Positions 2,657 to 19,085 of a stretch of DNA of 24,508 nucleotides are shown here, one piece after another (within the stretch, counting starts at the first letter, position 1; every line of letters begins with the position of its first letter). This DNA comes from a bacterium (GTDB lineage: Bacteria; SAR324; NAC60-12). Made by a program: the position numbers and the translations under genes. Below the pieces are notes generated by a model, which saw only the letters and a program-made list of their open reading frames with translations, did not search any database and was not told the DNA's origin. The DNA is taken from positions 1 to 24,508 of the forward strand of contig CBDDTI010000411.1 of NCBI GenBank assembly GCA_965233585.1, in the 5' to 3' direction.

Positions 2657-5600
2657 ATGGATTTTATAGAAATTCCACGTGATTTAAAGAGATCTAATTG
2701 CTTGGAATGGAAAACTCGTTACGATAAATTCAATTTTCTTTATCTGTACATTAGACATCTTTTTCCTGAGGAAACGGTTTCCGTTGTTGATTTTCGTCAA
2801 ATGCCGATAAAGTATCTTAAAAAGTTTAATATAAGAGGTTTCAAATTCCCTCTTCAATTTTGTAATTTAAAAAAATTCTTAAATAGAAACTCCCATTTAC
2901 CAATTTCAATTTCAGTTTTTTATGAGAGTGAAGGTCAAGTTTCAAAGTTAGGTTTTTTTACTAACAAAAACAACAACAGAAACAAAAACATTTTAAATTT
3001 GTTAATGATAAAATATGATCCTGAAATCTCTCTTGAAAATGAATCTCCATTTTCTCGCCTTGCAAAACCAATTCAACGCAAGAAAAAATCTTCTTGTAAA
3101 AAGATTGTCAATTGTAGTTCTAATGTCAAATTGGGTTTTTCTTCCAAGTTTAAAAAGATCAAGGATTTAAATCAACAGCACCATTTCTTTAAAATTACCA
3201 AAATCCAAGGTTTTTTGAATAATCGGGCCGGACTGTTGTCGGGTAAAAAAGCAGCTCAACAGAAGCACATCTATTGTGAAAAATGTCTGCTTCATTTTCG
3301 ATCCAAATCTAAAAAAGAAAAACACGAAAACACTTGCTGTGATAAACAACGTGCTATCTACCCAAGTAAAAATTCCTCCATAAGTTTTACCAATCATAAA
3401 CATAAATTTCATGCTCCTGTTGTTGGATTTTGTGATTTTGAATGTGTACTTCAAAGAAACAAAGAACGATCTAAATGTCAACTCTGTTTAAAAACTGAGT
3501 GTTTGTGTGCTTTTCCCACCAGTGACGATATAAACGTGCATAGACCAGTGGGGTATAGCTTGCTTTTTGTGGATTCGAATGATGAGGTATTTTTTCAAGA
3601 AGAATATGTAGGAGAGGATGCAGCCAAACATTTTTTGGATCGAATGCATTTCTATGAAAAAGTTGTTGACGAAAGAAAACAAAAATTCAGACATATTGTT
3701 AAAAATCAATCTAGTCCGCAAGAATGGCAAATGTATCAAAAAGCAAAAGTTTGTCATATTTGTGGTGGTCAATTCAAAAAGTACTCTAGAAATTACAGAA
3801 AAGTTCTAGATCATGATCACGTGACAGGGAAAATAATGGGCGCAGCTCATTCACTGTGTAACTTGACGAGATCCGGCCCCTTTCACACACCAATTTTTTT
3901 CCACAACGCTCAAGGGTAAGAAGTCTTAATTGGGTTTATTTATTAAACTAACACAAATTATGTACGCGTTTCAGATACGATTTGCATTTAATCGTGGAAG
4001 AGTTAAATGTTTCCAAATTTAAGCAAAATGTAAAAGTCTTAGCAAAAAACAGTGAAAAGTTTCGCACTCTTACATTGGGCAAATTTAAAATTCAAGATTC
4101 GTTAGAGCACATTTCTGGCAGTCTAGATGCACTTGTTCAAGATTTGAATCAGACCTCAAATTTTACCTTTCCCATTTTACAACAAATGGAAAGATATAAA
4201 AAAATTCCTGTTCGTCAAAAATCAAAAGCTTTAAAACTTTTAAAAAGAAAAGGCGTTTTTTGTTACGAACATTTCCAATCTTTAGAAGAGATGAAGAAAA
4301 GTCGAAACCTTCCGTCCAAAGACTCTTTTTATTCTGAATTAAACGAAGAACACATTACGGAAGCGGATTATTCCCATGCTCAAGAAGTCTTTAAATTGTT
4401 CAAATGCAAGAATGTGGTGGATTACATGATGCTCTATTGTTCTTTAGACGTTGTTTTGCTGTGTGAAGCATTTCTTCAGTACAGGAAAATGGTTATGGAA
4501 CATTTTCAATTGGATCCTGTTTATTATCTAGGTAAACTTTAATCTTTACTGTTGGATGTATCGTAATACTAAATTTGTTCTACCTAAATTAGGAATTCCT
4601 GGCTTGAGTTTTGATGTCATGCTTATGTTCTTTCAAAATTCAGAACAAGCTAAATCAGATAATAAGCTCACATCCGAATCTGAAACCTCCAAACCCCTCG
4701 GATCATTAGATGTCTATTCCGATCCTGAAATGGAGCGTTTTTTTACAAAGGGTATCAGAGGTGGGCAAAGTTTTATCGCTCAGCGTTATGCCAAAGGGAA
4801 TAGCAATCCTAGAAAAAGCGGCGATCACTTGTTATACATTGATGGTAATTTTATACTGTATTATCTGATGAAATCATTTTTGTTATGATCCATACAATTT
4901 TTCAGCCAACAACTTATACGGGAGTATGGAAACTTTAAAATTACCAGTTTCTGATTTCCAATGGGTTTCAAAAACAGAATTTAAAAATTGGACTGCCGAA
5001 GATATTATCAACATTCCTTCGCAAGACGATACTGGATATGCGTTCGAAGTTGATTTGCATTATCCTTCTCATCTTCACCAGGTAAATCCGATCTTTGTTG
5101 TGATACGTTATTTATTGTTTTGACAAGTTACATGATATCATTTTCAGGCACACGATCAATTTCCGCTGGCTCCGTATACAGACACGGTTTCTTTTAAACA
5201 TCTATCTCCTTACAATCGCCGTTTACTGAAACATCACTGTCCTCGAGATTATAGGAACAAAAGATACCGGAGCAAGAAATTGTTGAGCACTTTTTATGAC
5301 CGAAAAAAGTACGTGGTGCATCTGGAAAACCTGCAGTACTACTTGAAAAAGGGCATGAAGTTGCTGAAGATAAGAAGAGTCATGAAGTTTCGACAAAAAG
5401 CTTTTTTGAAGGAGTTCATCGAAAAGGTCACAAAGCTGCGATCAAATGCTCGCAATGACTTTGAACTCCGGCTTTTTAAACTTTTTGCCAACTCTACTTT
5501 TGGAAAATTTATTGGTGAGTTTTGAGATAAGATAATTTAATGATGTTGAGATTGTAAAAGACGCAAAAGCGTAATTTGACGCAGTCCATTTTTCTGTAAA

Positions 5601-8566
5601 AAATGAATTTGTTAAATACTCAAACGAATTTGGGGTCATTTTTTGTATTTTTTCTTTAATTTTGAGGCACAAGTGCGTGGTGGTACCGGCGACAGTTGCG
5701 GCAGTACGTCCTGCCGGCACCAACCACGCACTTAGCCTCATCAAAATCGTCATCTTCACCAATATCGGCTTCGTTGGCGGGGCTGACGTCGGCGGGGATG
5801 ACGTCGGCGGGGCTGACATCGGTGGGGATGACGTTGGCGGGGATGACGTCGGTGGGGATGACGTCCGGACGGACCGGCGACAAAGTCGGCGACGGAGGCG
5901 GCGGCCGTCCTGATCATCATGATCAAGCCTCTGGCAAGCCGTCTAAGACGGCCACCGCCCCACATCAGTGGTGGACGCGGCGGTGTCTCGCTCAATGGCG
6001 GGTCCGGCAGCAGCTTGAACCTCTCCTCCTCCTCCTCTTCCGTCCATTTCGCCCTCAACACCTCGTATTTCCCCCTCCTCATCCTTCCTAACTTTACCTT
6101 GTCCATTTTCCTTTTCCTTCTCCTTCTCCTCTTCCTTCTCTAAATTTGTTTTGAATTTTCCCGCATGGTTTTGTCAATTTTAGAAAATGAATCTCCAAAC
6201 CTTCACATATTAATTAGCAAATTATCTCATAAATATTCATAATATTAAATCAATATTAAATTAAAAATTCGCAAAATGAATTAATCAAGTACGCAAACTT
6301 TTGAAAAATCAATTTTTATAAAATGATGTGTTTATTTTGTAATCAAAAAGAAAAAGAAAAATGATCAAATTTAAATTTTAATTTTTTTTTGTAACTTTTC
6401 GAGCTGTAGACGGAGACCACACTGATGGAAATGCCGTTACTTGACGCACTTCTGGTGTTGGTGAAGGTTCCACGTGAGTATAGGGTTGTGGTTTAGATTT
6501 TTGTGTTGATTGTGAAGACAAATCAAAAGACACGCGATGAGAGGTCTGCTTTCGTGACTCCGACTCCGGCCTTTGTGGGACGGATTTGTACGGGGTTCGT
6601 GATGGCCAAGCAGGTGCTACGGGTCGCTCGGAAGATGCCCATGATTCTCCACCCAAAGCCGCAGAAGATGACCATGCTCCTCCAGTTTTAGTAGATGACC
6701 ATGCCCCCTCAGTTTTAGCTGATGACCATGCTCCTCCGCCCACAGCCCCAGAAGATGTCCATGCTCCTCCGGTTTTAGTGGATGACCATGCTCCCCCGCC
6801 CCCAGCCCCGGTAGTAGATGCGCTCTTCCACGACTCCGACCCTGATTTTTGCGGGACGGATTTGTACGGGGTCCGTGATGGCCAAGCAGGTGCCACGGGA
6901 CGTTCGGAAGATGCCCATGATCCCCCACCCAAGGCCGCAGAAGATGACCATGCTCCCGCAGTTTTAGTAGATGACCATGCCCCCTCATTTTTAGCAGATG
7001 ACCATGCTCCTCCGCCCACAGCCCCAGAAGATGACCATGCTCCTCCGGTTTTAGTGGATGACCATGCTCCCCCACTCCCGGCTCCGACAGTAGATGCACT
7101 CTTCCATGACTCCCGCTCTGATTTTTGTGGGACGGACTTGTACGGGGTCCGTGATGGCCAAGCAGGTGCCACGGGACGTTCGGAAGATGACCATGATTCC
7201 CCACCCAAGGCCGCAGAAGATGACCATGCTCCTCCGGTTTTAGTGGATGACCATGCTCCTCCGCCCCCGACCCCGGCAGTAGATGCGCTCTTCCACGACT
7301 CCGACCCTGATTTTTGTGGGACGGACTTGTACGGGGTCCGTGATGGCCAAGCAGGTGCCACGGGACGCTCGGAAGATGTCCATGATCCTCCACCCGCAGC
7401 CCCAGAAGATGACCATGCTCCCTCAGTTTTTGTAGATGACCATGCTCCCCCAGCCGCAGCCCCGGTAGAGCTACTGCCAGAAGTCGGACTTGAAGTTGCC
7501 TCCTCCTTGGCTGATTCTATTACTTTTAACCAAAAAGCTTTGCTCTTTTCCTGATCTTTTTTATCCATTTTGACTTAGTGTTTATTTTGTTGGAATTTTT
7601 GATGTCCGTTTATGTCGGGCTTTAAAAAAGGAATGATTTCAAATTGAAGTAAATTATAGTACATTGCTAATTACAGAGGAAAGTGAAATGTGATATGGGA
7701 CGGCTAGTTAGCTGAGGTGATTGCGCACATAATCAATTTTCTTTATTAAATAAATCTTATTTTGCATTTCAGAAAATGTTCGAAATTACTCTGAAGTGGT
7801 CCTTTGTGGTGATGAACAGAGCTTAAGGAAAGCCAGTCTTGGTCAACACATCAACAGTTTTCAAATCATCAATGAAAACTTGGTGGCTGTCAACAAGAAG
7901 CCGGCAATAATAGAGCTCAGGAAGCCTTTAGCTGTTGGATTTTCTATTTTGGAATTGTCCAAGTTGTTTATGTACAGATCGTATTATGACACGATTCAAC
8001 AACATTTTGGCGAAAAAAATGTGTCTTTATGTTTCTCAGACACGGATTCTTTTCTTTTAAAAGTAAGATGCAACAACTTGGAAAGGGAAATGAAAAAATT
8101 AGAGCACATATTTGATTTTTCAAAGTACCCCAAACAACATCCTCTTTTCGATGACAGTAGAGCCAATCAGCTTTTTTATTTTAAAGACGAACTAAAAGGC
8201 AGAGCTGCTATTACTCACTTTATAGGCTTACGTCCAAAATGTTATTCTATGAAAATTACTGATTTTTCAGACAAAAACAAAACAGAAGAAAAGAAAATTT
8301 GCAAAGGTTTAAAAAAATCTAGCATAAAAAAGCAATTAACCTATAACGATTACAAAAAATGTCTAAAACGTGCTGTTCTAATTTACAAATCTTTCAAAAA
8401 CTTAAGATCAAAGAATCATAAAATTCGGACATGTTTTCAAAGAAAGATTGCGTTATCAGCAATGGATTCCAAAAGACACATTTTGAATTGCGGATATCAC
8501 ACTTTATCACTAGGAAATTGTCTTATTGTCAACAACAAATCATCTAAATGCCCTATTTGTAAATAA
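2657..8566 (+). CDS. polB: Protein-primed family B DNA polymerase, 6 exons: 2657-3915, 3975-4531, 4593-4844, 4906-5081, 5148-5514, 7773-8566 (3405 nt, 1134 aa)
   Basis: Splicing rebuilds ExoII HNAQG/YDLHL, DPVYYLG/IPGLSFD, motif A YIDA/NNLYG, YPSHLHQ/AHDQFPLAP and motif B KLFANSTFGKFIE/NVR. Also present: ExoI DFE, ExoIII YCSLDV, motif C SDTDS, LRPKCY, KGL, and an endonuclease VII-like insert CHIC...DHDH...AHSLCN. Confidence 0.93.
3916..3974 (+). other. pPolB intron 1 (59 nt)
   Basis: GTAAG...CTAAC branch-like...TTTCAG; removal gives GG+A TAC GAT (G-Y-D) in frame. Confidence 0.93.
4532..4592 (+). other. pPolB intron 2 (61 nt)
   Basis: GTAAAC...ATTAG; removal gives YYLG-IPGLSF in frame. Confidence 0.88.
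4845..4905 (+). other. pPolB intron 3 (61 nt)
   Basis: GTAATT...TTTTCAG; removal restores catalytic motif A, D-A-N-N-L-Y-G. Confidence 0.93.
5082..5147 (+). other. pPolB intron 4 (66 nt)
   Basis: CAG|GTAAAT...TTTTCAG|GCA; removal restores LHQAHDQFPLAP. Confidence 0.92.
5756..6106 (-). CDS. Arg-rich, protamine/core-like ORF nested in intron 5 (frame uncertain, possibly a pseudogene)
   Basis: 116-aa ORF with RHPHR/RQPR repeats and MWGG|G. An in-frame upstream ATG at 6166 is cut off by TAG at 6142-6140, followed by RRKRRRRRKRK. TATAAAA at 6320-6314. Other frames are also partly open. Confidence 0.35.
   Translation of the reverse strand: MDKVKLGRMRRGKYEVLRAKWTEEEEEERFKLLPDPPLSETPPRPPLMWGGGRLRRLARGLIMMIRTAAASVADFVAGPSGRHPHRRHPRQRHPHRCQPRRRHPRRRQPRQRSRYW
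5772..5861. repeat. Six copies of a 15-bp GC-rich tandem repeat (CGTCGGCGGGGATGA consensus)
   Basis: Directly visible, with 0-2 substitutions per unit. Confidence 0.9.
6378..7568 (-). CDS. 396-aa Ser/Gly/Trp-rich repeat protein nested antisense in intron 5
   Basis: GTCAAA-ATG start, unique N- and C-termini, many GGAWSS units and four copies of ERPVAPAWPSRTPYKSVPQ. AATAAA on the minus strand at 6336-6331 follows the stop. Confidence 0.7.
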   Translation of the reverse strand: MDKKDQEKSKAFWLKVIESAKEEATSSPTSGSSSTGAAAGGAWSSTKTEGAWSSSGAAGGGSWTSSERPVAPAWPSRTPYKSVPQKSGSESWKSASTAGVGGGGAWSSTKTGGAWSSSAALGGESWSSSERPVAPAWPSRTPYKSVPQKSERESWKSASTVGAGSGGAWSSTKTGGAWSSSGAVGGGAWSSAKNEGAWSSTKTAGAWSSSAALGGGSWASSERPVAPAWPSRTPYKSVPQKSGSESWKSASTTGAGGGGAWSSTKTGGAWTSSGAVGGGAWSSAKTEGAWSSTKTGGAWSSSAALGGESWASSERPVAPAWPSRTPYKSVPQRPESESRKQTSHRVSFDLSSQSTQKSKPQPYTHVEPSPTPEVRQVTAFPSVWSPSTARKVTKKN

Positions 8567-8629: not shown

Positions 8630-9324
8630 ATGGATGGTTTTGATTTAAGGTTCAGTATTCCTTCCAACATGTTAATTGTTGGCCCAACATCGAGTGGAAA
8701 AACAACGTGGCTTAAACATTTAGTGGTTGGTAGGCATGAATATTTTGCAACTCCGCCAGAAACAATGTTGTTGTTCTACAAAGAACCACAAAAAGCTTAT
8801 GAATACATGGAAGATGATATGAATCGAGACAAACGTTCAAACTCTCGTTTTCCAACATTTCGTAAATTTAAAAGTATTCCAAATTCGATTGAAGAACTAA
8901 AAGATATTTTGGAATCATATCCAAGAAAAATGCCCAAATTAGTTGTTTTTGATGATTATTTAGACGATGTTGGACAAATATTAAAACATTTTTTTACGGT
9001 TTTGACTCATCACTACAATTGTTTCACCGTTTTTCTGTGTCAAAATTTATTTGATAAAAAAGGTGATTTGCGGACATTAAGCATAAACACTCAGTACATG
9101 GTTCTTTTTAACAATCCTCGGGACAGAAGTGCGGTTGCGCATTTGGCTAAACAAATTTTCCCGGACGAGTCGGAATTTTAAATAAAGCATATAGGGAAGC
9201 TGTTAACGGTCGAAGTCATGGATATCTCCTTCTAGATTTCCATCAACAACAAGACGATAAAGTCAGAATTCGAAGCAACATTTTTCCGTACGAGGGTCTG
9301 ATGAAAGCTTACGTTACCGTTTAA
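8630..9324 (+). CDS. A32/FtsK-HerA family DNA packaging ATPase with a -1 frameshift near 9178
   Basis: Walker A GPTSSGKTT, Walker B VVFDD, HHYN..VFLCQN and RTLSIN. The conserved C-terminus (KAYREA...GYLLLD...RIRSNIFP) continues in the -1 frame to TAA at 9322-9324. Confidence 0.88.
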
Positions 9325-9372
9325 AGGATTTTCATATCTATTTAAGAAAAATAAAAAATTGCAACTGTCAAA

Positions 9373-9747
9373 ATGTCTAAAACATTAGGAAAAGCTAGTT
9401 CACTTTTTTATGTAATAAAAAAATTAAAACATCAGGATTGTGCCAATTTTTTAAGTCATTTGGACGATCGCGGAGTTGAATTGCTTTGTCGAATATTACA
9501 TTACGTGTTGAACGGTGACTTGCCCATACATGGCAAAGTACGAACACGTCTTCAAAAAAAGATAAGAGCTCATTTGTCAGAATTTAGACGTCTTGCTGCA
9601 CCACCGCGTCGTTCTTCCGACATTTCAAAAAAAAGAAAAATATTACAAAAAGGCGGAATTTTAGGAGTTTTATCAGCGATCGCCAGCACCGTCATCCCTC
9701 TTTTGGCCCAAATTATTGCAAATAAGAGTTCGCGACGTCGTCGTTAA
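9373..9747 (+). CDS. Basic virion core protein with a C-terminal membrane-active helix (adenovirus pX-like)
   Basis: QKGG|ILGVLSAIASTVIPLLAQII is an adenain-type site followed by a hydrophobic helix, typical of Polinton/adintovirus core proteins. Confidence 0.7.
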   Translation: MSKTLGKASSLFYVIKKLKHQDCANFLSHLDDRGVELLCRILHYVLNGDLPIHGKVRTRLQKKIRAHLSEFRRLAAPPRRSSDISKKRKILQKGGILGVLSAIASTVIPLLAQIIANKSSRRRR

Positions 9748-9749
9748 AA

Positions 9750-11211
9750 ATGAACTCAGGAGTAAAAATAAAACCACATGATGAAATGTATTCTATGTTT
9801 TTAGTACCTAAAAGATTATATTATTCATTAATAAAAAATACGGAAGACGATGAATCAAAAAAAGAACTTATTTCTATGAATGAAAAACCGGAAACAACCA
9901 ACTATATTGAAAATGCCATTAAATTTAAAAATCTACAAGACAGACAGAAAATAATCCAAACTGGGGATAAATTACTTCGTTTTGGGTCTGATAAATTACC
10001 GAATGTCACATCAATTGCCCAATCTGATAGCATGGGTCGTACTTACCAATCTCTTTCAAGATCACCATCCACTCAAATTCCTCAACGAGAAGAAATACAG
10101 AATGTAATGTCTCCTGGTCGAGTTACCCAAAAAGGTAGCAGTATTGACCGCGCTTACCACCCGGTTTTAAGATCACCATCCACCCAAATTACGCAACGAG
10201 AAGAAATACCAAATGCACTAACACCTGCTCGAATTGATTCCGATATGGATCTCACGGACGTATCTCTTTACAGAACACCCACTGAAATTCCCCAACAAGA
10301 AGAAAATAATTTACCTAGTACCCCCATTATTGAAAGAGAATTTGTTGCAGAAAAATCTCTTAGTCCTGAAAAAACAAAAAGTCCGAACGAATCAGCTTAT
10401 TCAACTCCTGTTACTACCAAACGAGAAGAATGGCGAGAAACACCTGTTTTAGAAGCGATGACGAAAAGAAATTCAAAAGGCAAATTAGTTTGTCCAGTTC
10501 CTGATTGTTGGAAGCAATATGTTGACGAAGGGCAATTGGGCAAACATTTGCTAAAAGATCATCCTAAAGATATAGCTTTGAAAGACAAAAAGACCATTAA
10601 AGGAATGATTTCCAGCCCTTACGCTAGAAGAAACAGCTCAAATGAAATGGATTACTCATACGCACTTTCCACAATAAAATCTCCAGTTGTGTTAAATTGG
10701 CGAAATACACCTATTGCAAAAGCAGTGAAAGAAAAGAATGCAGCCGGCAAAATAGTTTGTCCTTTTCCCAATTGCGGGAAGCAATATGTCGGCATTCCAC
10801 AATTTGGCAAACACATGATGAAAGAACATTATAAAGAATTGTCTGTAAGGGATCAAGAATAAAATTTTTGGAATGACCTCTACCCCTCGAAAAAGAAGAT
10901 TAAGAGGAATTGGAAGCTCTTCTCCTTCATTTCCACTCACACCTGTTAAAATACGATTTTCAGCCGGAAAAGCTAAATCAAAGGGTGCAACAAAAAGAAA
11001 TTCCACTGATGCTGACATGACTCCTGCACAAACCAAAATCAGATCAAAATCAATGAAAATGTCACAATCTAAAAGCCCAATAAACAGGGACCCTATTGAA
11101 GCTGGTGTGTCTCCTGTAAAAACCAGATCAAAAACAAGAAAAATGTCTAAATCAGAAGCTAAAGTAGATTCTGTTAAAAAACTTTTTTCAGGAAAATATC
11201 CAAAGTTATGA
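9750..11211 (+). CDS. Protein with two C2H2 zinc fingers and a basic SP/TP-rich tail; ORFs 9750-10862 and 10873-11211 are probably one gene with a +1 frameshift
   Basis: Fingers CPVPDC...H...H and CPFPNC...H...H. The internal repeat KDIALKDKKTIKGMISSP aligns without gaps to KELSVRDQE/KIFGMTSTP across the frame break at 10860. Confidence 0.6.
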
Positions 11212-11224
11212 AAGTAAAAATATA

Positions 11225-11707
11225 TTAACATTTATTTTCAATTTTTTTTATAAAGTGAGTTACAATTTTATCGTTTTCTGATTTGGGATTTTTTACAAAT
11301 AATTTAACAAATTGTTGAGGGGTCATTAAATTGTTGCCCACGGATAAACAAAATGCGCACGTGTACCATCCACAAAACAAAGAACGGAAACTCTGAATTG
11401 AGTGAGATAAGATAATTTTGAAGGAGTTTTTCTCTATCCAGGGTCGTAAAAACTTCATCAAACATTTGTTCCATATCGGTGGTAAAAAACCGAAAGAATC
11501 AAAATAATAGAGTTGATTTTTCTTGTTAATGTACATTGCTACGAAATGAGATCCTTCTTGATTTCTTTTGGATAAGTTAGCGATCAGGCAGCAAGGCAAT
11601 GAAAGCGGATCAGATGGCAAGTCGTCGACCGAAAATACCCCGATGAAATTCTTACATCTGGGTCGAATGTAATTGTTTAAAAAGATATTTGATAACCCAC
11701 CCTCCAT
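11225..11707 (-). CDS. Adenain-like cysteine protease (capsid maturation)
   Basis: FIGVFSVD, GSHFVA (His), YFDSFG (Asp) and IQS...FCGWY (Gln, Cys). Confidence 0.92.
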   Translation of the reverse strand: MEGGLSNIFLNNYIRPRCKNFIGVFSVDDLPSDPLSLPCCLIANLSKRNQEGSHFVAMYINKKNQLYYFDSFGFLPPIWNKCLMKFLRPWIEKNSFKIILSHSIQSFRSLFCGWYTCAFCLSVGNNLMTPQQFVKLFVKNPKSENDKIVTHFIKKIENKC

Positions 11708-11710: not shown

Positions 11711-13060
11711 TTAATTGGTTCCTTTTATGACTTGTTGAAATTGATCTATTTTAATACCGGAGTTAAAAATAGATAAGGCCAGAACGTATATTGGATGGGG
11801 AGTGATTTGGGAAAAAGCCAACTCTAAATCTAAATTTCCATAATTTTCTGGATGAGTGTGGTACGAATTACATTGATCTGGTGTCAAGTCGGCCGCCAGA
11901 AAAAATCTTCCATTTATAAAAGCATCATACGTCAAGCCAATGGACTGATTGCCGTGCGAAATGCCTATACTGTCGTATAAATGTCGATACAAATCAACAA
12001 CGTCCCCCTCCTCAATATTAGGTTGAAAAGGTTTGGGAAATACGCATTGCCCGTTCTTTTTTAAATTAAACGAGGAAAGATTAAAGTGTTGAAAATTAAA
12101 AGGATTTTTGTCGGGAGCATGCGACATAGCCTGATTGTGAACCATCACAAAAAACACTTGTTTGGGTAATGTTCCATTAGCAATATTAGCGATGTTAAAA
12201 GACGACACGCCTTGAGGAATAACGTAATGTCTTAAACGTGTAGAGCTAAAAGGCAGGTAGCACGGTTCTTTTAAAAGTTTGTTTTTGAAACTTTCTCGTA
12301 TTATCAACGTAGGCAACACTTTTCTCATATGCAATTTGACATCTTTTAACACAATTTTGAAAGGTTTTGCTGCTGCAGGATCTTGAAGCAAACCAAATGT
12401 TTCAGCCGATCTAACCAATTTTATCTTGATATCCACATTTGGTGGTAAGAATCGATCAGTGTCAAACAGATCAACAGCTATACGCGAGTTAAAAAATACT
12501 TTTTTCCCGTTTAAAATCAAATTCTTTCTTTTTGTCAAAGAATTAGAGGAAACTTCTTCGGTAATTTTGGTGGTGGTAACTTCGTCTATAGTTTCGGGAT
12601 AATATCCTTCAGCAGCCAGATAAGTGTCTTTTACGTCAATATTGTAACTTAAATATGATTGTAAAAACATTCTCCAGGGGTAGGTGACCGCCGAACTTAA
12701 ATCAGCTACTTGAACACCGTTCAAATACACTTCTACTTGACTGAATAAACAAGCAGCAAAATGATTTACCAACGCGGTTTTACTTGCCTCCGTGACAAAG
12801 CCGCCGTCATCATTTGTCACTACAAAATGCCCACTGAGTCTGGTTTGACTCAGTATAAAAGAACACTCGTTGTCGCGAGGAACAAGAAATTCTACCGGAC
12901 CGGTGTTGGTGATAGAAGCCACGCTATTGTAAATAACGTGAGCCCCTTCCAATAGACCCGTTTCCACTTCTAAGGGTGCGTGAAGCGCTAAACCACTTTC
13001 TGTGCCATCGTTTTGTTCCACGGCCAATCCAGCAATTCCGCTTTTATCAGGCAAGCCCAT
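11711..13060 (-). CDS. Major capsid protein (double jelly-roll, hexon-like), 449 aa from ATG 13060
   Basis: Polinton MCP-like motifs GPVEF, LFSQVEVYLNG, FLPPNVDIKIKL, LPKQVF, NPFNFQHF, DLTPD and GNLDLEL. Confidence 0.88.
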   Translation of the reverse strand: MGLPDKSGIAGLAVEQNDGTESGLALHAPLEVETGLLEGAHVIYNSVASITNTGPVEFLVPRDNECSFILSQTRLSGHFVVTNDDGGFVTEASKTALVNHFAACLFSQVEVYLNGVQVADLSSAVTYPWRMFLQSYLSYNIDVKDTYLAAEGYYPETIDEVTTTKITEEVSSNSLTKRKNLILNGKKVFFNSRIAVDLFDTDRFLPPNVDIKIKLVRSAETFGLLQDPAAAKPFKIVLKDVKLHMRKVLPTLIIRESFKNKLLKEPCYLPFSSTRLRHYVIPQGVSSFNIANIANGTLPKQVFFVMVHNQAMSHAPDKNPFNFQHFNLSSFNLKKNGQCVFPKPFQPNIEEGDVVDLYRHLYDSIGISHGNQSIGLTYDAFINGRFFLAADLTPDQCNSYHTHPENYGNLDLELAFSQITPHPIYVLALSIFNSGIKIDQFQQVIKGTN

Positions 13061-13067
13061 ATCAAAG

Positions 13068-13610
13068 ATGGAAGTGATGGTCAGCAATGTTAAAATCAGT
13101 TGCAAAATTCGTCTCATCGACAGTGACAAAATTTCTTTTAATACCGATAATGTACTAAAACATTATAATAATTTTACTGTTGTTAAAAAAAAATATTCTT
13201 TTATTGTGTTTACTAAAACAAAGCAAAATCGAAATTTCCACGTAAATATTACTAAAATCCCTTCCACAGAGCATATACCAAAAGCATTAGACGAATTAAA
13301 ACTTGTTATAAGTAGTAAATTTATTACTGAAAAGTTTAAAATAGAAAACATGACTTGTTTGTGTCATATGTCATCAAAAATCAATTTATTAACATTTTAC
13401 AACAATTTGAAATTAAATGTAGATTTTGAAATTATCCAAAAGAGATACGACTCTGAGAAATTTCCTGGAATGTTTTTAACATTAAAAAAGTGTTCTGCTT
13501 TAATATTTTCGTCTGGAAAAATAGTAATAATTGGAGCTTCCTGCGAAAAAGACGCTACACAAGGAATAAAAATTATTTCTGAATTGCTGAAAAAATATAA
13601 AACTGAATAA
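13068..13610 (+). CDS. TBP: TATA-binding protein homolog (180 aa, core only)
   Basis: Second repeat FKIENMT...YDSEKFPGMF...ALIFSSGKIVIIGA closely matches the TBP signature. First repeat VSNVK...YNNF...FIVF...VNITK is diverged. Confidence 0.9.
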   Translation: MEVMVSNVKISCKIRLIDSDKISFNTDNVLKHYNNFTVVKKKYSFIVFTKTKQNRNFHVNITKIPSTEHIPKALDELKLVISSKFITEKFKIENMTCLCHMSSKINLLTFYNNLKLNVDFEIIQKRYDSEKFPGMFLTLKKCSALIFSSGKIVIIGASCEKDATQGIKIISELLKKYKTE

Positions 13611-13716
13611 ATTCAATATAATAAAAGATTACGTCGGATTATTTGTAAAATCAGTTAAATTTTGAACTTCGTACAATAAACAATGAAATTATGTTCAAAA
13701 ATTAGATTGGATTAAA

Positions 13717-14436
13717 ATGTGCATTCATCAATATATAATAGAAGACACCAGACAAGGAGACGTAGTGTGCACCGAGTGTGGTTTAGTTATTGATAAAATA
13801 TATTGTGATCCAAATTTAGAAACAAAATGGGAAAAAATAAAAAATTTAAATGAAGAATTTGAACAAAACAGCGAACATTTAAAGAAGGAAAAAAATATTT
13901 TAAAAAATTTATGTAATAAATTACATTTAAATAATGATGTTACAAACACTATTTTTAACTTGTGGTCAGAAATAGTAGCGTGGCATTATCAAAAAAATGG
14001 AAAAATTAAAATTAATCCAAAAGGCTTAATTGCTATGGCATTGTATCAAAGTTTAATAGAGGAAAAAATTCCCCGCCCAATAAGTCACTTGTGTCAGGAA
14101 ATTGGTATTAGCCCAAAAACGGTATGGCGATGGATAAAATTATACAGACAAGATTCGACCAACACAATTAAAACAGAAAATTCTATAAAAGCAAAAGATA
14201 TGGCAGAATATTTTTTACAGCCTCTACAGTTAAATTATCAAGAGATGACAACTATAAAAGAAAAACTAAATAAAAATGAAAATAGTTCTTTTGCTCCTAG
14301 GACTTTATTAGCAGCATGTGCTTATGCCTTTTTAAAAGAAACAAGAGCACTATATCCGAGCGTCAAAAATACAGCTCGTATTTTAGGCGTCAGTGTTATG
14401 TCTTTATACAGATGTCTTAAAAGTCTAGAGCAATAA
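13717..14436 (+). CDS. TFIIB: Transcription initiation factor TFIIB homolog (239 aa)
   Basis: N-terminal Zn ribbon CIH...EDTRQGDVVCTECGLVI, then two cyclin-like repeats (LCNKLHL...AMALY...IPRPISHL; APRTLLAACAY...TARILGVS). Confidence 0.9.
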   Translation: MCIHQYIIEDTRQGDVVCTECGLVIDKIYCDPNLETKWEKIKNLNEEFEQNSEHLKKEKNILKNLCNKLHLNNDVTNTIFNLWSEIVAWHYQKNGKIKINPKGLIAMALYQSLIEEKIPRPISHLCQEIGISPKTVWRWIKLYRQDSTNTIKTENSIKAKDMAEYFLQPLQLNYQEMTTIKEKLNKNENSSFAPRTLLAACAYAFLKETRALYPSVKNTARILGVSVMSLYRCLKSLEQ

Positions 14437-14444: not shown

Positions 14445-14846
14445 ATGAATTACCACAGCGGCTTACGTTGGCAACGAGGCTCGGGAATCGGATCACTTTT
14501 TTCCGGAATTTTTCGTGGTTTAATGCCGGTAGCAAGATCAGCGGTAAAAACTATTGGAAAAGTGGCTAGAAGCGCACCGATAAGATCCGCAGGTAAAGCT
14601 TTAAAAAAAGAGGCGACAAAGGCGGCGGTAGAAACTGCATTAGAGGCTTTGGAGGGTCAACCGGTCGGGAGAAAAGCTAAACAACGATTAAAATCAGCTA
14701 CTCGCGGTATTTTGCTTAACGCTGCTAGACAAGCAGATACCAACAACGAATATCGAGCTCAAAATTCGAGCAGAAAGAGGAAAACACCGTCAATTGCTAA
14801 ATCTAGGAAAAAAAGACGGAGAATAACTAAACAACCCTTGTTTTAA
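14445..14846 (+). CDS. Basic core protein with an N-terminal amphipathic helix (pVI/pVII-like)
   Basis: QRGS|GIGSLFSGIFRGLMP is typical of Polinton core proteins; Arg/Lys-rich C-terminus. Confidence 0.75.
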   Translation: MNYHSGLRWQRGSGIGSLFSGIFRGLMPVARSAVKTIGKVARSAPIRSAGKALKKEATKAAVETALEALEGQPVGRKAKQRLKSATRGILLNAARQADTNNEYRAQNSSRKRKTPSIAKSRKKRRRITKQPLF

Positions 14847-14852: not shown

Positions 14853-15935
14853 ATGACAACAAAAGAGATTTTTTTAAAAGAATATGCAAGACCAGGCTCA
14901 CCAATAGCTTTTGCATCTCCTGCGTTGATTTATTATTATTATGGAAAAAAAATTCCTTTAACGACAATTGAAGAATGGTTAAAGGGAACTGATTCTTACA
15001 CACTTCATAAACAACCAAAATTACCTAAACCTAGAAATCCAACATTTGCTTATCATAAGAGATATCAATTTCAAATTGATCTTATAGATTTAGGAAATTT
15101 GATCGAAGAAAATGACGGGAATAGATACCTTCTAACAGCTATTGATATTTTTACACGATTCGCGTTTGTAGAACCCTTAAAAAATAAAACAGCAAAAACT
15201 TTTATGGAGGGATTTGAGTCTATTATGAAAAGAGCAAAAAAGTTTCCTCGTAGAATTTTAGCTGATAAAGGTGCAGAAATAAAGAATAAATTGTTTCAAG
15301 CCTACTGCAAAAACAATAACATTCTTCTATTACACAGCAACAATTTTGTGCACGCCCCTTTTGTGGAAAGATTTAACCGAACTTTAAAAAATCTGATGTT
15401 TAAATACATGACTCACGAAAATACAGATAGGTACATCGATGCATTACCTTTTCTTGTTCATACCTACAACCATCGTAAACATCGTATGATTGGAATGTCA
15501 CCCGCTGAAGCCGAGCTCCCCGGTCGGACTTATTTTATTAGAAGAAAACAGGAATTGCATTATTCAAAGTTTAAGAGAAAAAGACCAAAATACAAAATTG
15601 GTCAAACCGTGCGCATTAGCATAATGAAGGGAAAATTTGACAGAGGTTTTACACAACAATTTAAGGAAGAAATTTTTAAAATAAAATCAATTTTTACTCG
15701 TTTGCCTAAACCTACTTATGAATTGGAAACTTTAGAACAGGATGAAACTCTGGAAGGAAATTTTTATGAGAGTGAACTTACTCCCGTGAATGAGCCAGAA
15801 TTATTTATGATTGAAAAAATTTTACGAACAAAAAAAGATAAAAAAACAGGTGAAAAAATGGTTTTGGTGAAATGGAAAGGGTATAAAAACCCCAGTTGGA
15901 CATATGAGAAAGATGTAGTTGATGTGTCACAATAA
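14853..15935 (+). CDS. int: Retroviral-like (rve) DDE integrase with C-terminal chromodomain
   Basis: YTLHK, QIDLID (D), IDIFTRFA, ADKGAE (D), VERFNRTLK (E), YNHRKHRMIGMSP and chromodomain LVKWKGY...SW. Confidence 0.95.
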   Translation: MTTKEIFLKEYARPGSPIAFASPALIYYYYGKKIPLTTIEEWLKGTDSYTLHKQPKLPKPRNPTFAYHKRYQFQIDLIDLGNLIEENDGNRYLLTAIDIFTRFAFVEPLKNKTAKTFMEGFESIMKRAKKFPRRILADKGAEIKNKLFQAYCKNNNILLLHSNNFVHAPFVERFNRTLKNLMFKYMTHENTDRYIDALPFLVHTYNHRKHRMIGMSPAEAELPGRTYFIRRKQELHYSKFKRKRPKYKIGQTVRISIMKGKFDRGFTQQFKEEIFKIKSIFTRLPKPTYELETLEQDETLEGNFYESELTPVNEPELFMIEKILRTKKDKKTGEKMVLVKWKGYKNPSWTYEKDVVDVSQ

Positions 15936-15941: not shown

Positions 15942-17693
15942 ATGGATTATAACATTTATTGCGTGTCAAACGCTGGTTCCAATACGGACGTCAAAAATAC
16001 TTTAAATTCCTTTACCAATTTATTTCCGCAAAATTTAGATTTGAAAAATAGAGAATGGGAAATTGGAATAGTATCTATGGGGTTACATTATAATTACAAC
16101 CAATTAACCATGACAAAAGGTCAAATCGGTGTCATAACGCTAAAAAACGAATTAACATCTATAAATTCTTCAGAAAAGGAGATAGAGACCGAGATTTTAA
16201 ACCAGACAAAATCTGTTTGGGTTTTGCCTGATTTAGATGAAGAAGATCTGTCAGTATATAGATTAATGCAAAATTTGATGCAATTTATTTACAAGGAAGG
16301 AATGAAAATGGTTAGTGGTGACCTCGAATCAGACGGTGAAACTAAAAGATTCTACATAATTGAAGAAGGTCCTAAAAAAGAAACCGAAAATGAGACGGAA
16401 AATGAAAATTACAATCATAATAGATACTTACTAATTCATCAACAGTTAATAAAAATTATAAAGTTAAGATGTTATAAAGACAGAGTGTTTTTTTCTGGAG
16501 AAAAATCAATTAAATATTTTGGTAACGAATATGTGTATTATCCGTTACAAAAAAATTTTAGGTTTCAAACCATAGCAAATAAAGTGACTTCCGTTTTGAA
16601 ACCCGGTTTAGTTCACGTAAAATCAAATATTATTTCCGACGTTCCTAACAGTGATAATTATTCCACAATTATGTTTACAACAACTTTACCTAAGCAAATG
16701 GAGGGTCATTATTTTTACCATAATGTAAAAAAGGTCAGATATTATCAAGTGCGGCAAACCAATATTGAGACAATAAACTCTCAATTCACAGATGCTTTTG
16801 GAAATCTTTTGAGCTTAAACGAAGGTCAACCGTCTCTAATTCATTACCATTTGAGAGAGAAAGAAAAAAACATGGATCACGAATTGAGACACGTGCGAAT
16901 CGATTCGAAAGTAGATGCCAAATTGGATTACGAAAATACAAATAGTAGCTTTTGGGTGCATTTAAAACATCCACTGCATTTAAATCCAAACGCGAAAATT
17001 GCCCTGATGGATATTTCTTTTCCCGACAGCATATGTAGCATTCCAGAATCAATCGCTAATGAACCAATAATAATAAAACTGGTTAAAGGTCAAAACATAG
17101 AGGAAGAACACAAATTGAATATACCAAAAAATTATTTTTGTGACTCTAACGATTTAACAACGGCAATGAATGATTTATTGACAGAAGAATTAAAGAAACT
17201 AGTATATTTTGAAAACGTTAATGGATATTTAAGAATTACGGCTAAAACTGATCAAATTTTTATAATTGGATTTCCACAAAGCTTTTGTCCGATTTTAGGA
17301 ATGTACGATTACCCCAATGAAGAAAAACAAAGAGTTAGTGATCAAAACAACTACCATTTTTTTGCTGTGAGAAATTACTCAGTTTATCAAGCACCACAAC
17401 CGATAGACATTTACAAACTGTATCCTGGTGTTATGATTTGTTATGCCAATTTTGTTCAGCATTCTATTGTCGGAGACAAATTTTACCCAATACTTAGAAT
17501 TATTCCCACGATTGGACAGTCAAAACAAAATGACTACTGCTCGATCCATTTTGAGCATTTAGAATTTATCAAATGCAATGTTGATTATTTAGACAACATG
17601 AAGATCGAATTGAGGAGATTGGACGGAGACTTAATTGAATTCGACAACGAAAAAAGTGTTATTTTAAATATTGTAATTAAAAACCCAATTTAA
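15942..17693 (+). CDS. Minor capsid (penton-like) protein with two tandem domains
   Basis: N-terminal motif SN...NTLNSFTN...LDL...WEIGI recurs as DS...NTNSSFWV...LHL...KIAL. C-terminal motifs SNII...IETI...TDAFGNLL and ANFVQHSIVGD...ILRII...LDNMKIEL...DGDLI also recur. Confidence 0.75.
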   Translation: MDYNIYCVSNAGSNTDVKNTLNSFTNLFPQNLDLKNREWEIGIVSMGLHYNYNQLTMTKGQIGVITLKNELTSINSSEKEIETEILNQTKSVWVLPDLDEEDLSVYRLMQNLMQFIYKEGMKMVSGDLESDGETKRFYIIEEGPKKETENETENENYNHNRYLLIHQQLIKIIKLRCYKDRVFFSGEKSIKYFGNEYVYYPLQKNFRFQTIANKVTSVLKPGLVHVKSNIISDVPNSDNYSTIMFTTTLPKQMEGHYFYHNVKKVRYYQVRQTNIETINSQFTDAFGNLLSLNEGQPSLIHYHLREKEKNMDHELRHVRIDSKVDAKLDYENTNSSFWVHLKHPLHLNPNAKIALMDISFPDSICSIPESIANEPIIIKLVKGQNIEEEHKLNIPKNYFCDSNDLTTAMNDLLTEELKKLVYFENVNGYLRITAKTDQIFIIGFPQSFCPILGMYDYPNEEKQRVSDQNNYHFFAVRNYSVYQAPQPIDIYKLYPGVMICYANFVQHSIVGDKFYPILRIIPTIGQSKQNDYCSIHFEHLEFIKCNVDYLDNMKIELRRLDGDLIEFDNEKSVILNIVIKNPI

Positions 17694-18490: not shown

Positions 18491-19085
18491 TCACAATTTA
18501 ATGGTACTTGAGCAAATCCAAATAAATAAAAATTTTGGAGTTAAACAAGTGCCAAAAAAGTATGAAGATTAGATGTTAACATTTTCGGAGTGAAGTAGTT
18601 GCTCACAATTTTGTAACTTTTATGTGGATTCAAATATTAAAATTAAAGATTTAAATCGCGCACAAAAGTTAAAAAAGTGTAAGACGTTGATCTTGATGAT
18701 GAAATGTGATGAAGGTTGACTGTGATTTAACGATGTTTATGCTAAATAATTGCTCACAATTTAATTACTCTTGTGGCGAGTGTCATATATGATAAAACAT
18801 TATGAGACCCGTACAAGAGTAAAAAAAGCATGAGATGATAAGCAGTGTCCGGATTTTAGAGTTGAGTAATAGCTCACAATTTTAATGCCAAATGTGACAG
18901 GTCAAATTTAATTTAAAAATTTAGACCTACACACATTTGTCAAAAAAGCATGAGAAATAAAGATGGTCTTCGGAGTTATCTTGAGTGTAGTAAAAACTCA
19001 CAATTTTAAAATAAATGTGAGAGATAAATTATAATTAAAAAATTTAACCCCTCACATTTATCAAAAAACTATGAGAAAATAGATG
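18491..19085. repeat. Five degenerate 110-150 bp repeats
   Basis: TCACAATTT at 18491, 18603, 18754, 18874 and 18998, each followed by an AAAAAAG(C/T)ATGA-like block. Confidence 0.65.

What the first reader, a model, noticed from the sequence alone, without database searches (positions are those of the whole stretch)
13068..14436. Polinton/adintovirus encoding its own TBP and TFIIB
Seen: two adjacent, co-oriented, intact and intronless ORFs with TBP and TFIIB signatures lie between the MCP gene and the core protein/integrase genes, so they are inside the element. Known: viral TBP/TFIIB homologs occur in large DNA viruses such as Nucleocytoviricota; I do not know them as standard Polinton genes. 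No RNA polymerase subunit is visible in the window. Inference: a minimal viral promoter-recognition module that recruits host Pol II to viral (perhaps late) promoters or competes with the host factors.
Basis: partly seen in the sequence, partly recalled or inferred. Interest (0 to 1): 0.95.

Follow-up and report, generated by a model that had tools for sequence, protein, structure and literature searches.

The report
Polinton virus with own TBP–TFIIB pair
An integrated Polinton/Maverick-type virus carries two adjacent, intact genes for divergent copies of TBP and TFIIB, the two factors that mark a promoter for RNA polymerase II; the pair is conserved and under selection in distant relatives, so these small viruses probably bring their own promoter-recognition kit.

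Summary
ORFs at 13068-13610 (180 aa) and 13717-14436 (239 aa) are a TBP homolog and a TFIIB homolog by Pfam, PDB sequence search, AlphaFold2 models and Foldseek. They lie between the capsid gene and the core-like and integrase genes of a Polinton whose polB and ATPase are disrupted.

The pair is not a recent host capture. Five of five distant loci (TBP 33-38% identical) keep the order TBP, TFIIB, small basic protein, integrase. The one pair of loci not saturated at synonymous sites gives dN/dS of 0.13 for both genes.

The TBP belongs to a large family: at least 98 clusters at 50% identity among the best 150 hits. Its N-terminal repeat is degenerate and it separates from canonical TBPs with 100/99 support. 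The TFIIB keeps its zinc ribbon and both cyclin repeats but lacks most of the B-reader/B-linker.

The best reading is a private promoter-recognition module that recruits host Pol II. This is inferred, not shown; the complex prediction could not be run.

One paper's figure legend lists a TBP gene in related viruses. I found no report of TFIIB or of the pair.

I rate it a new variant of a known kind, interest about 0.7.

The parts
13068..13610 (+). vTBP, 180 aa: an asymmetric TATA-binding-protein homolog. The N-terminal repeat (residues 1-88, 13068-13331) is degenerate. The C-terminal repeat (residues 89-177, 13332-13598) is canonical.
   Evidence: Pfam PF00352 matches at E 1.1e-16, in the C-terminal half only. 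The AF2 model has pLDDT 91.1 and pTM 0.81. In Foldseek against PDB, ranks 1-44 are all TBP chains, aligned over about 195 columns, TM 0.59-0.72, 17-27% identity. hhalign of the N-half against the C-half of 99 family members gives probability 91.8%, E 7e-7, over 76 columns.
13611..13716 (+). AT-rich spacer of 106 nt between the TBP stop and the TFIIB start. In the distant loci the two ORFs overlap by about 34 nt instead.
13717..14436 (+). vTFIIB, 239 aa. It has a zinc ribbon (residues 2-26, up to 13794), a short linker (27-51, 13795-13869), cyclin repeat 1 (52-150, 13870-14166) and cyclin repeat 2 with a C-terminal helix-turn-helix (159-238, 14191-14430).
   Evidence: Pfam ribbon PF08271 matches at 33 bits against a cutoff of 29. 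C2, H4, C18 and C21 are invariant in 17 of 17 and in 14 of 14 aligned sequences. The AF2 model has pLDDT 73.5, with 80-89 in most 10-residue blocks of the cyclin repeats. In Foldseek against PDB, ranks 1-35 are TFIIB, TFB, Brf1 or Brf2, with cyclins after that. The profile of 14 sequences matches human TFIIB at E 1.5e-17 in one stretch, 22-290.
11711..13060 (-). Major capsid protein (double jelly roll), divergent from vTBP. The two start codons are back to back, 7 nt apart.
   Evidence: The Atlas lead is PF21738. There are 178 homologs, including proteins named 'F54H12.2-like'. The L003 ortholog matches PF21738 at E 2.9e-4, below cutoff. The sequence is shown.
11225..11707 (-). Adenain-like cysteine protease.
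   Evidence: Pfam Peptidase_C5 matches at E 0.0064 in the window, below cutoff. The orthologs in L003 and L004 match at 21.6 and 27.1 bits against a cutoff of 21.3.
14445..14846 (+). Small basic protein (133 aa) with a conserved glycine-rich N-terminus. It is a putative virion core protein and always follows vTFIIB.
   Evidence: It has no Pfam match. An ortholog is present in 5 of 5 loci. dN/dS is 0.075 for L001-L004. The 'core' role is inferred.
14853..15935 (+). Retroviral-type integrase (rve) with a C-terminal chromodomain.
   Evidence: Pfam rve matches at 2.5e-9 and Chromo at 3.5e-5. The same architecture occurs in L003 and L004.
15942..17693 (+). Conserved 583-aa protein of unknown function that closes the syntenic block (605 and 628 aa in L003 and L004).
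   Evidence: It has no Pfam or PDB sequence match. Its nearest Atlas clusters are unnamed Preplasmiviricota proteins. tblastn with the L003 ortholog gives E 1.5e-18.
2657..8566 (+). Protein-primed type B DNA polymerase in pieces (about 2810-3910, 3973-4533, 4935-5480 and 7970-8560). There is a frame change near 3.9 kb and about 2.5 kb of foreign GC-rich repeat DNA between 5480 and 7970.
   Evidence: tblastn with the L003 polB pieces; composition; tandem repeats.
8630..9315 (+). A32/FtsK-type packaging ATPase, with a frame change near 9160-9180.
   Evidence: Pfam Pox_A32 matches at 4.4e-4. tblastn finds two pieces in different frames.

Best explanation
The window holds an endogenous Polinton/Maverick-type virus, adintovirus-like, with disrupted polB and ATPase. 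Its conserved gene block runs protease and capsid on one strand, then vTBP, vTFIIB, a core-like protein, the integrase and a protein of about 600 aa on the other strand.

vTBP is a saddle-shaped TBP. Its C-terminal repeat is close to canonical; in cellular TBP this is the half that TFIIB binds (recalled). Its N-terminal repeat has diverged. vTFIIB keeps the zinc ribbon, which in cellular TFIIB docks on Pol II (recalled), and both cyclin repeats, which in cellular TFIIB bind TBP and DNA (recalled). It has lost most of the B-reader/B-linker.

Most likely the two proteins form a virus-specific TBP-TFIIB-DNA complex on element promoters. These promoters would carry a TATA-like box with an altered half-site and a virus-specific flanking element read by the C-terminal helix-turn-helix. 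The ribbon would then bring host RNA polymerase II to the complex. This would give the element a private promoter code that works without host TFIID and may escape host regulators of TBP.

Shown here: homology, folds, conserved synteny, purifying selection, and the absence of any polymerase gene. Inferred: mutual binding, DNA specificity, Pol II recruitment, and which genes are driven.
For: Identity of the two genes:
- TBP: (family profile against PDB TBPs, 2.6e-21 to 3.3e-13).
- TFIIB: (E 1.5e-17 to human TFIIB, covering ribbon through second cyclin repeat).

Conserved module:
- 5 of 5 loci found with the TBP profile in genome contigs encode TBP, then a TFIIB-like protein, then a small basic protein, then the integrase.
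- The two loci with long flanks also have protease and capsid genes divergent upstream and a protein of about 600 aa downstream.
- Their TFIIB-like ORFs reach the Pfam TFIIB-repeat cutoff: 23.8 and 27.2 bits against 23.6.
- Ten capsid homologs at 54-98% identity share a longest-contig length with a TBP or TFIIB homolog. That they share a contig is inferred.

Selection:
- For the pair L001-L004, TBP has dN 0.078, dS 0.582, ratio 0.134. TFIIB has dN 0.089, dS 0.673, ratio 0.132. The integrase ratio is 0.046.
- Full-length ORFs persist down to 27-38% identity.

Functional residues in 99 family members:
- The two central Asn are kept (N7 98%, N94 96%).
- Three Phe are kept (F48 95%, F132 100%, F147 98%).
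- E130 in the C-terminal stirrup is kept in 76%.
- The zinc ligands of TFIIB are invariant.

Single deep family:
- All 62 asymmetric TBPs separate from 29 canonical TBPs at UFBoot 100 / SH-aLRT 99. The quick tree of 139 rows gives 99.

Precedents for viruses that lack a polymerase:
- Chloroviruses encode putative TFIIB, TFIID and TFIIS and have no RNA polymerase gene (PMC7019647, passages read).
- The herpesvirus TBP mimic ORF24 recruits Pol II to late promoters (PMC7498053, abstract read).
Against: - No binding, DNA-specificity or expression data exist. The complex prediction was never run.
- vTFIIB has only about 25 residues between ribbon and first cyclin helix. Human TFIIB has 46 more residues over the same aligned span. 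In cellular TFIIB that region sets the start site and helps open DNA (recalled), so a canonical initiation role is doubtful.
- Two DNA-facing valines of the first TBP repeat are replaced in the whole family: K9 100% against V 86% in canonical TBPs, and N60 100% against V 89%.
- The fourth intercalating Phe position is ambiguous: Y33 is aromatic in 60%, or F36 is F/Y in 95% if the loop is shifted.
- No shared promoter motif emerged. The best 7-mers upstream of 66 ORFs reach only p about 1e-4 to 1e-3 uncorrected.
- In the window the TBP start lies 7 nt from the capsid start, so its promoter is not evident.
- dN/dS rests on one unsaturated pair. 9 of 10 TBP pairs and 14 of 15 TFIIB pairs have dS > 1.
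Confidence: 0.6

Rival explanations
1. Decoy or regulator. The pair competes with host TBP and TFIIB, and vTFIIB without a reader/linker forms dead-end complexes. It would act to shut down host transcription or to repress the element itself, not to start transcription.
For: Most of the B-reader/B-linker is missing (the AF2 linker 29-51 has pLDDT below 50). The ribbon and core domains needed for competition are conserved.
Against: A decoy needs only one protein, yet both are kept together in 5 of 5 loci. The DNA-facing changes K9 and N60 are fixed in the family, which suggests a new specificity rather than loss of function. The C-terminal helix-turn-helix is among the most conserved segments.
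Confidence: 0.15
2. Non-transcriptional DNA handling. The TBP-TFIIB complex marks a site on the viral genome or on host chromatin for replication, packaging or integration. Some retrotransposon integrases are aimed at TBP/Brf1 complexes in a comparable way.
For: The pair sits directly upstream of the core-like protein and the chromodomain integrase in every locus. A Ty3-TFIIIB targeting structure is among the fold matches (rank 35). This is a resemblance only.
Against: No feature specific to such a role was found. The retained zinc ribbon makes sense mainly as a polymerase contact (recalled).
Confidence: 0.08
3. The pair recruits RNA polymerase III (Brf-like use) or another polymerase for small viral RNAs.
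For: TBP plus a TFIIB-family factor is also the Pol III solution. Brf1 and Brf2 chains appear among the fold and sequence matches.
Against: The profile scores human TFIIB at 1.5e-17, against Brf2 at 7.7e-5 and Brf1 at 2.7e-4. There is no Brf-type C-terminal extension. Rfam found no RNA gene in the window.
Confidence: 0.07
4. Recent host gene capture that is decaying neutrally and happens to be intact in this copy.
For: This copy is degraded elsewhere, in polB and the ATPase. 11 of 35 TBP homologs and 22 of 43 TFIIB homologs in the close family are shorter than full length.
Against: The proteins are 17-27% identical to any solved TBP and 14-20% identical to the solved TFIIB, TFB and Brf chains at ranks 1-29. 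Synteny is conserved at 27-38% identity. dN/dS is 0.13. The family is monophyletic with at least 98 clusters.
Confidence: 0.02

Closest known systems
Cellular TBP-TFIIB promoter complex (eukaryotic Pol II; archaeal TBP-TFB)
   Same: Same folds and domain order. TBP is a two-repeat saddle. TFIIB is a ribbon plus two cyclin repeats. The central Asn pair, three Phe and the four zinc ligands are conserved.
   Different: Pfam does not recognise the N-terminal TBP repeat (33 of 33 family proteins and 2 of 2 loci scanned). Two DNA-facing Val are replaced by Lys and Asn. Both genes are carried by a virus of roughly 15-20 kb.
TFIIB and TBP-like genes of Nucleocytoviricota, including chloroviruses, which have no RNA polymerase
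   Same: These are virus-encoded general transcription factors. The best viral fold matches of vTFIIB are giant-virus TFIIBs (27 hits at E<=1e-3). Chloroviruses combine putative TFIIB and TFIID with the host polymerase (PMC7019647).
   Different: Those genomes are 100 kb to several Mb and carry many other transcription genes. Here the pair is the only transcription machinery seen, in a small integrating element. Identity to these proteins is 12-21%. No phylogeny against them could be made.
Beta/gamma-herpesvirus TBP mimic (KSHV ORF24, HCMV UL87, EBV BcRF1) and the viral pre-initiation complex
   Same: A nuclear dsDNA virus without its own polymerase uses its own TBP-like protein to read non-canonical late promoters and bring in host Pol II (PMC7498053, abstract).
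   Different: The herpesvirus protein contacts the Pol II CTD through its own N-terminal domain and has no TFIIB-like partner. Here a separate TFIIB homolog would do the recruiting. No sequence relation was tested or seen.
'TBP' gene drawn in MELD viruses with adintovirus-like PolB (Starrett et al. 2021, Fig. 5 legend)
   Same: A TBP-like gene in a midsize linear dsDNA virus related to adintoviruses (PMC8502044, legend and section 3.4 read).
   Different: The figure is not held, so the virus and the protein are unknown to me. The text says nothing about TFIIB, a conserved pair, or function. That section concerns non-animal datasets.
Poxvirus VITF-3 and asfarvirus TBP/TFIIB-like factors
   Same: A divergent TBP/TFIIB-like pair encoded by a virus (PMC12917281, abstract start seen in the listing). 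A poxvirus pre-initiation complex chain is a weak fold match (rank 48, E 1.4e-3).
   Different: Those factors serve a virus-encoded multisubunit polymerase in the cytoplasm, and no such polymerase is present here.

Membership tests
TBP (PF00352 superfamily) | Two tandem TBP repeats forming one saddle | tested here: met
   Full-length Foldseek alignments to TBPs cover about 195 columns with TM up to 0.72. The internal repeat is recovered by hhalign at 91.8%. Pfam itself sees only the C-terminal repeat.
TBP (PF00352 superfamily) | Central Asn in each repeat and four intercalating Phe on the DNA face (roles recalled) | tested here: inconclusive
   N7 98%, N94 96%, F48 95%, F132 100% and F147 98% are kept. 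The fourth Phe position aligns with Y33 (aromatic in 60%) or, if the loop is shifted, with F36 (F/Y 95%). K9 and N60 replace canonical Val.
TBP (PF00352 superfamily) | Binds and bends a TATA box | not testable with these tools
   No binding assay or DNA-complex model was available.
TFIIB family (TFIIB/TFB/Brf) | N-terminal zinc ribbon with four ligands | tested here: met
   PF08271 matches at 33 bits against a cutoff of 29. The pattern C-x-H-x13-C-x2-C is invariant in 17 of 17 and 14 of 14 sequences.
TFIIB family (TFIIB/TFB/Brf) | Two cyclin-like repeats after the ribbon | tested here: met
   Foldseek ranks 1-35 are TFIIB-family chains. The profile aligns to human TFIIB 22-290 at E 1.5e-17. 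PF00382 is below cutoff in the window (18.8 against 23.6) but above it in L003 and L004 (23.8 and 27.2).
TFIIB family (TFIIB/TFB/Brf) | B-reader and B-linker of about 60-70 residues between ribbon and core (length recalled) | tested here: not met
   Only about 25 residues (27-51) lie between them, with pLDDT below 50. Human TFIIB has 46 more residues over the same aligned span. The loci proteins are shorter still, at 207-214 aa.
TFIIB family (TFIIB/TFB/Brf) | Binds the TBP C-terminal stirrup and Pol II | not tested
   The complex prediction was never accepted or answered. E130 of vTBP, aligned with the canonical stirrup Glu, is kept in 76%.
Polinton / Maverick (adintovirus-like, Preplasmiviricota) | Protein-primed PolB, rve integrase, double-jelly-roll capsid protein, A32-type ATPase and adenain-like protease | tested here: met
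   All five are present. PolB and the ATPase are disrupted in this copy.
Polinton / Maverick (adintovirus-like, Preplasmiviricota) | Terminal inverted repeats bounding the element | tested here: not met
   No long inverted pair spans the element within the window. The ends may lie outside the window or be degraded.
Herpesvirus viral pre-initiation complex (vTBP) | Homology to the ORF24/UL87 family and its five partner proteins | not tested
   This is only a functional analogy. No such chain is among the Foldseek PDB matches listed.

The most novel reading that the evidence does not exclude
The vTBP-vTFIIB pair may be an ancestral, standard gene module of a large clade of Polinton/Maverick viruses. 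It would define a private promoter code, with an altered half-site read by the diverged N-terminal TBP repeat and a virus-specific flanking element read by the TFIIB helix-turn-helix. Element transcription would then be independent of host TFIID and insulated from host TBP regulators. These would be the smallest viruses known to nucleate their own pre-initiation complex. The family could also bear on where giant viruses obtained their TFIIB and TBP-like factors.
Probability: 0.3. Interest if true: 0.85.

Novelty: new variant of a known kind. Interest (0 to 1): 0.7.

Why it matters
How Polintons and Mavericks get their genes transcribed is essentially unknown. They are among the most widespread DNA viruses or transposons of eukaryotes.

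A conserved, selected TBP-TFIIB pair gives a concrete and testable answer. It points to specific proteins, a predicted interface and candidate promoters.

It would extend virus-encoded general transcription factors from giant viruses down to integrating elements of roughly 15-20 kb that have no polymerase.

The asymmetric TBP and the nearly linker-less TFIIB are also natural experiments on which parts of the basal machinery are dispensable.

Tried and rejected
- Shared promoter motif:
  - A 13-mer lies upstream of two genes (8587 and 9339). It has 12 matches at up to 2 mismatches against 5.0 expected.
  - An unbiased 7-mer test on 66 upstream regions gave nothing that survives multiple testing.
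- Terminal inverted repeats: none were found that bound the element.
- Genome-contig scan with the TFIIB alignment: 19 pattern matches, none confirmed.
- Names for homologs: 26 proteins were looked up in three calls. Only one carried a name, a canonical TBP. Hosts and taxa of the family therefore stay unknown.
- Rfam on the window: 0 matches.
- PHROGs: only weak TFIIB-region hits.
- PDB sequence search with the 583-aa protein: 0 hits.
- Origin of the TBP: archaeal TBPs score higher than eukaryotic ones (79 against 60 bits). Both of their repeats match the viral C-terminal repeat, so I draw no conclusion from this.
- Literature:
  - Searches found no report of TFIIB in Polintons, Mavericks or adintoviruses.
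  - Term look-ups in five further papers also found none.
  - Figures and bioRxiv supplements could not be seen.
Full report
**What is in the window.** Standard-code ORF listing and Pfam show a Polinton/Maverick-type element between roughly 1 kb and 18.5 kb.
- polB pieces, 2657-8566, + strand.
- An A32-type ATPase, 8630-9315, + strand.
- Two small ORFs and a C2H2 zinc-finger protein, 9373-11211, + strand.
- An adenain-like protease, 11225-11707, - strand.
- The capsid protein, 11711-13060, - strand.
- On the + strand and tightly packed: the two ORFs of the finding, a small basic protein (14445-14846), an rve plus chromodomain integrase (14853-15935) and a 583-aa protein (15942-17693).

The capsid assignment rests on an Atlas lead to the double-jelly-roll domain. 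It also rests on 178 sequence homologs, among them proteins named 'F54H12.2-like' in insects.

This copy is degraded. tblastn with the proteins of a related locus shows a frame change in polB near 3.9 kb. About 2.5 kb of GC-rich tandem-repeat DNA lies between polB pieces (5480-7970). There is also a frame change in the ATPase near 9.17 kb. No inverted repeats bounding the element were found.

**The observation.**
- The 180-aa protein matches Pfam TBP at E 1.1e-16, through its C-terminal half only. It matches 35 of 35 PDB sequences that are TBPs.
- The 239-aa protein matches the TFIIB zinc ribbon above Pfam's cutoff and the TFIIB repeat below it. Human TFIIB is its best PDB match.
- Stops precede the ATG at 13717, and distant homologs begin at the same Met-Cys, so the ORF is complete.

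**Folds.**
- With a 25-sequence alignment, AlphaFold2 gives a confident TBP model, pLDDT 91.1 and pTM 0.81.
- Foldseek against PDB returns TBP chains at ranks 1-44. The alignments are full length, about 195 columns, TM 0.59-0.72, with only 17-27% identity.
- The TFIIB model is less confident overall, pLDDT 73.5 and pTM 0.42. Most 10-residue blocks of the two helical repeats are at 80-89.
- For that model, Foldseek ranks 1-35 are TFIIB, archaeal TFB, Brf1 or Brf2. Cyclins come only after that.
- A profile of 14 TFIIB-like sequences, including five from distant loci, matches human TFIIB at E 1.5e-17. The match is one collinear stretch from ribbon to second cyclin repeat, human residues 22-290.
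- That is far better than the same profile scores against yeast TFIIB (1.2e-4), archaeal TFB (2.8e-5), Brf2 (7.7e-5) or Brf1 (2.7e-4).

**How the proteins differ from the textbook forms.**

*vTBP is asymmetric.*
- Pfam sees only the C-terminal repeat in the window protein, in 32 of 32 sampled relatives, and in the L003 and L004 orthologs.
- The N-terminal half is still a repeat of the same fold. hhalign of the N-half against the C-half of 99 family members gives 91.8% probability, E 7e-7, over 76 columns.
- I compared 99 family members with 29 canonical TBPs column by column:

| Window residue | In the family | In canonical TBPs |
|---|---|---|
| N7 | N 98% | N 96% |
| N94 | N 96% | N 100% |
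| F48 | F 95% | F 89% |
| F132 | F 100% | F 100% |
| F147 | F 98% | F 96% |
| K9 | K 100% | V 86% |
| N60 | N 100% | V 89% |
| K63 | K 75% | G 100% |

- The fourth Phe position is ambiguous. It aligns with Y33, aromatic in 60% of the family, or with F36 (F/Y in 95%) if the loop is shifted.
- The C-terminal stirrup Glu (E130) is kept in 76%.
- From recalled structural knowledge, the C-terminal repeat is the half that TFIIB binds. The N-terminal half binds TFIIA and several regulators. The pattern therefore fits a TBP that keeps its TFIIB side and has freed its other side. That reading is inference.

*vTFIIB is shortened.*
- It keeps four zinc ligands (C2, H4, C18, C21), invariant in 17 of 17 and 14 of 14 sequences.
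- It keeps a strongly conserved C-terminal helix-turn-helix.
- Only about 25 poorly predicted residues separate the ribbon from the first cyclin helix. Human TFIIB has 46 more residues over the same aligned span.
- Most of the B-reader/B-linker is therefore absent.

**Relatives and conservation.**
- Word-indexed searches found 35 TBP-like proteins at 44-98% identity, 24 of them full length at 177-189 aa. They found 43 TFIIB-like proteins at 44-92% identity, 21 of them full length. None carries a name.
- Ten capsid homologs at 54-98% identity share a longest-contig length with a TBP or TFIIB homolog. This suggests, but does not prove, that they lie on the same contigs.
- The exhaustive profile search found 3349 proteins at E<=1e-3 and 645 at E<=1e-10.
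- Of the best 150, 98 are proteins of about 178 aa that match the profile in one full-length stretch. Another 35 are canonical TBPs with two or more stretches, and 17 are partial. Each is a representative of a 50%-identity cluster, so the asymmetric family is large.
- I built a careful IQ-TREE tree of 91 rows: the window protein, 8 family members, 4 loci, 49 of the 97 asymmetric representatives (every second one), and the 29 canonical proteins of 250 aa or less.
- In that tree all 62 asymmetric proteins separate from the canonical ones at UFBoot 100 / SH-aLRT 99. A quick tree of 139 rows gives 99.
- The canonical sample is unlabelled. It is simply the canonical TBPs that score best against the viral profile, so the source of the capture is not resolved.

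**Direct test of synteny and selection.**
- The second genome-contig scan, with the TBP alignment, returned five contigs binned into three bacterial MAGs. They are evidently foreign to those bacteria, with about 30% GC and Polinton genes.
- Their TBPs are 33-38% identical to the window's.
- In 5 of 5 the order is TBP, then a TFIIB-like protein (207-214 aa, same zinc-ligand pattern), then a small basic protein, then an rve integrase. One TBP is cut by the contig end.
- The two loci with long flanks also have protease and capsid genes divergent upstream and a protein of about 600 aa downstream, plus polB and the ATPase elsewhere.
- Nei-Gojobori estimates are usable for one pair only, L001-L004:

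| Gene (L001-L004) | dN | dS | dN/dS |
|---|---|---|---|
| TBP | 0.078 | 0.582 | 0.134 |
| TFIIB | 0.089 | 0.673 | 0.132 |
| Core-like protein | 0.044 | 0.585 | 0.075 |
| Integrase | 0.039 | 0.852 | 0.046 |

- The other 9 of 10 TBP pairs and 14 of 15 TFIIB pairs have dS above 1 and are saturated. All their ratios are below 1.
- The pair is therefore an old, selected module and not a decaying recent capture.

**Mechanism.**
- No polymerase subunit was seen in 26 window ORFs or in 24 ORFs from the loci. Transcription must therefore use a host polymerase.
- The much better fit to TFIIB than to Brf factors, and the lack of a Brf-type tail, favour Pol II.
- I propose that vTBP and vTFIIB assemble on element promoters and recruit host Pol II through the ribbon. 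DNA specificity would be shifted by the changes in the N-terminal repeat and by the viral helix-turn-helix.
- In the alignment, the window residues opposite the human positions that I recall as base-contacting are M228 and Y231. This is a recalled lead only.
- The missing reader/linker is the main difficulty for this reading and keeps the decoy or regulator rival alive.
- I could not identify a promoter motif. In three loci, TATA-like runs lie in the 51-52 nt between the capsid and TBP starts. In the window those starts are only 7 nt apart.

**What is known.**
- The legend of Fig. 5 in Starrett et al. [quoted passage not shown] The figure is not held, so I cannot say which virus.
- Seven full-text searches and term look-ups in five further papers found no TFIIB in Polintons, Mavericks or adintoviruses.
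- The viral fold library returns only giant-virus TFIIBs and one archaeal rudivirus factor among named hits. Eleven of the 27 hits at E<=1e-3 are unnamed.
- Functional precedents are chloroviruses, which have no polymerase gene but encode putative TFIIB, TFIID and TFIIS (PMC7019647). Another is the herpesvirus TBP mimic (PMC7498053, abstract).

**Verdict.** The identification is supported and extended, while the function is plausible but untested. I rate it a new variant of a known kind: virus-encoded general transcription factors, here as a conserved two-gene module in small, polymerase-less, integrating viruses, with an asymmetric TBP and a nearly linker-less TFIIB. Interest is about 0.7.

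**Left open.**
- Whether the two proteins bind each other (the complex job never ran).
- The host and the taxonomic range.
- The source of the capture.

Noticed in passing
window 5480-7970 (repeat ORF 6378-7568, minus strand): GC-rich DNA (45-47% against about 30% around it) sits between polB pieces. It has 276-bp tandem repeats (2.5 copies, 92% match) and a 396-aa repetitive Gly/Ser/Trp-rich ORF on the minus strand with no Pfam match. It looks like a foreign insertion into the element.
   Followed up: partly
window 2810-8560; L003 2119-6313; L004 1010-5415: polB is split into the same three successive ORFs in the window and in L003 (859 + 167 + 192 aa), with non-coding gaps of 173-359 nt in L003; L004 shows a similar split (839 aa plus three smaller ORFs). 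Conserved breaks suggest introns rather than damage. An Endonuclease VII domain lies inside the polB N-terminal part in all three.
   Followed up: partly
window 13058-13070: The capsid gene and the TBP gene start back to back, only 7 nt apart (11 nt in L002, 51-52 nt in L001, L003 and L004). In the window each promoter must therefore lie inside the other gene or far upstream.
   Followed up: partly
window 8587-8599 and 9339-9351: An identical 13-mer lies 43 nt and 34 nt upstream of the ATPase ORF and the next ORF. It has 12 matches at up to 2 mismatches against 5.0 expected. It is a possible promoter element, but two exact copies are not enough to decide.
   Followed up: partly
window 19378-19786: A 32-bp unit is repeated 9.1 times at 99% match. 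It is followed by an inverted, more diverged copy of the array (arms 82-86% complementary).
   Followed up: no
window 20000-23000: The right flank is 56-62% GC and has a 693-aa ORF on the minus strand with no Pfam match. It is probably unrelated host or other DNA and not part of the element.
   Followed up: partly
window 477-782 and 18821-19089: Tandem repeats of 107 bp (2.9 copies) lie at the left of the gene block and of 123 bp (2 copies) at the right. They might mark degraded element ends.
   Followed up: no
L001-L005 (whole loci): Five contigs binned into three bacterial MAGs are Polinton-type eukaryotic virus DNA, with about 30% GC and capsid, integrase, TBP and TFIIB genes. This is binning contamination.
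   Followed up: yes
window 1885-2604 and 9750-10862: The element holds two C2H2 zinc-finger proteins. The L003 and L004 polB proteins also begin with a C2H2 finger. These may be further DNA-binding regulators.
   Followed up: no
L003 10474-10507; L004 10462-10495; L001 1411-1444; L002 616-649: In the distant loci the TFIIB ORF overlaps the end of the TBP ORF by about 34 nt, and the next ORF overlaps TFIIB by 7 nt. This hints at co-expression from one transcript.
   Followed up: no
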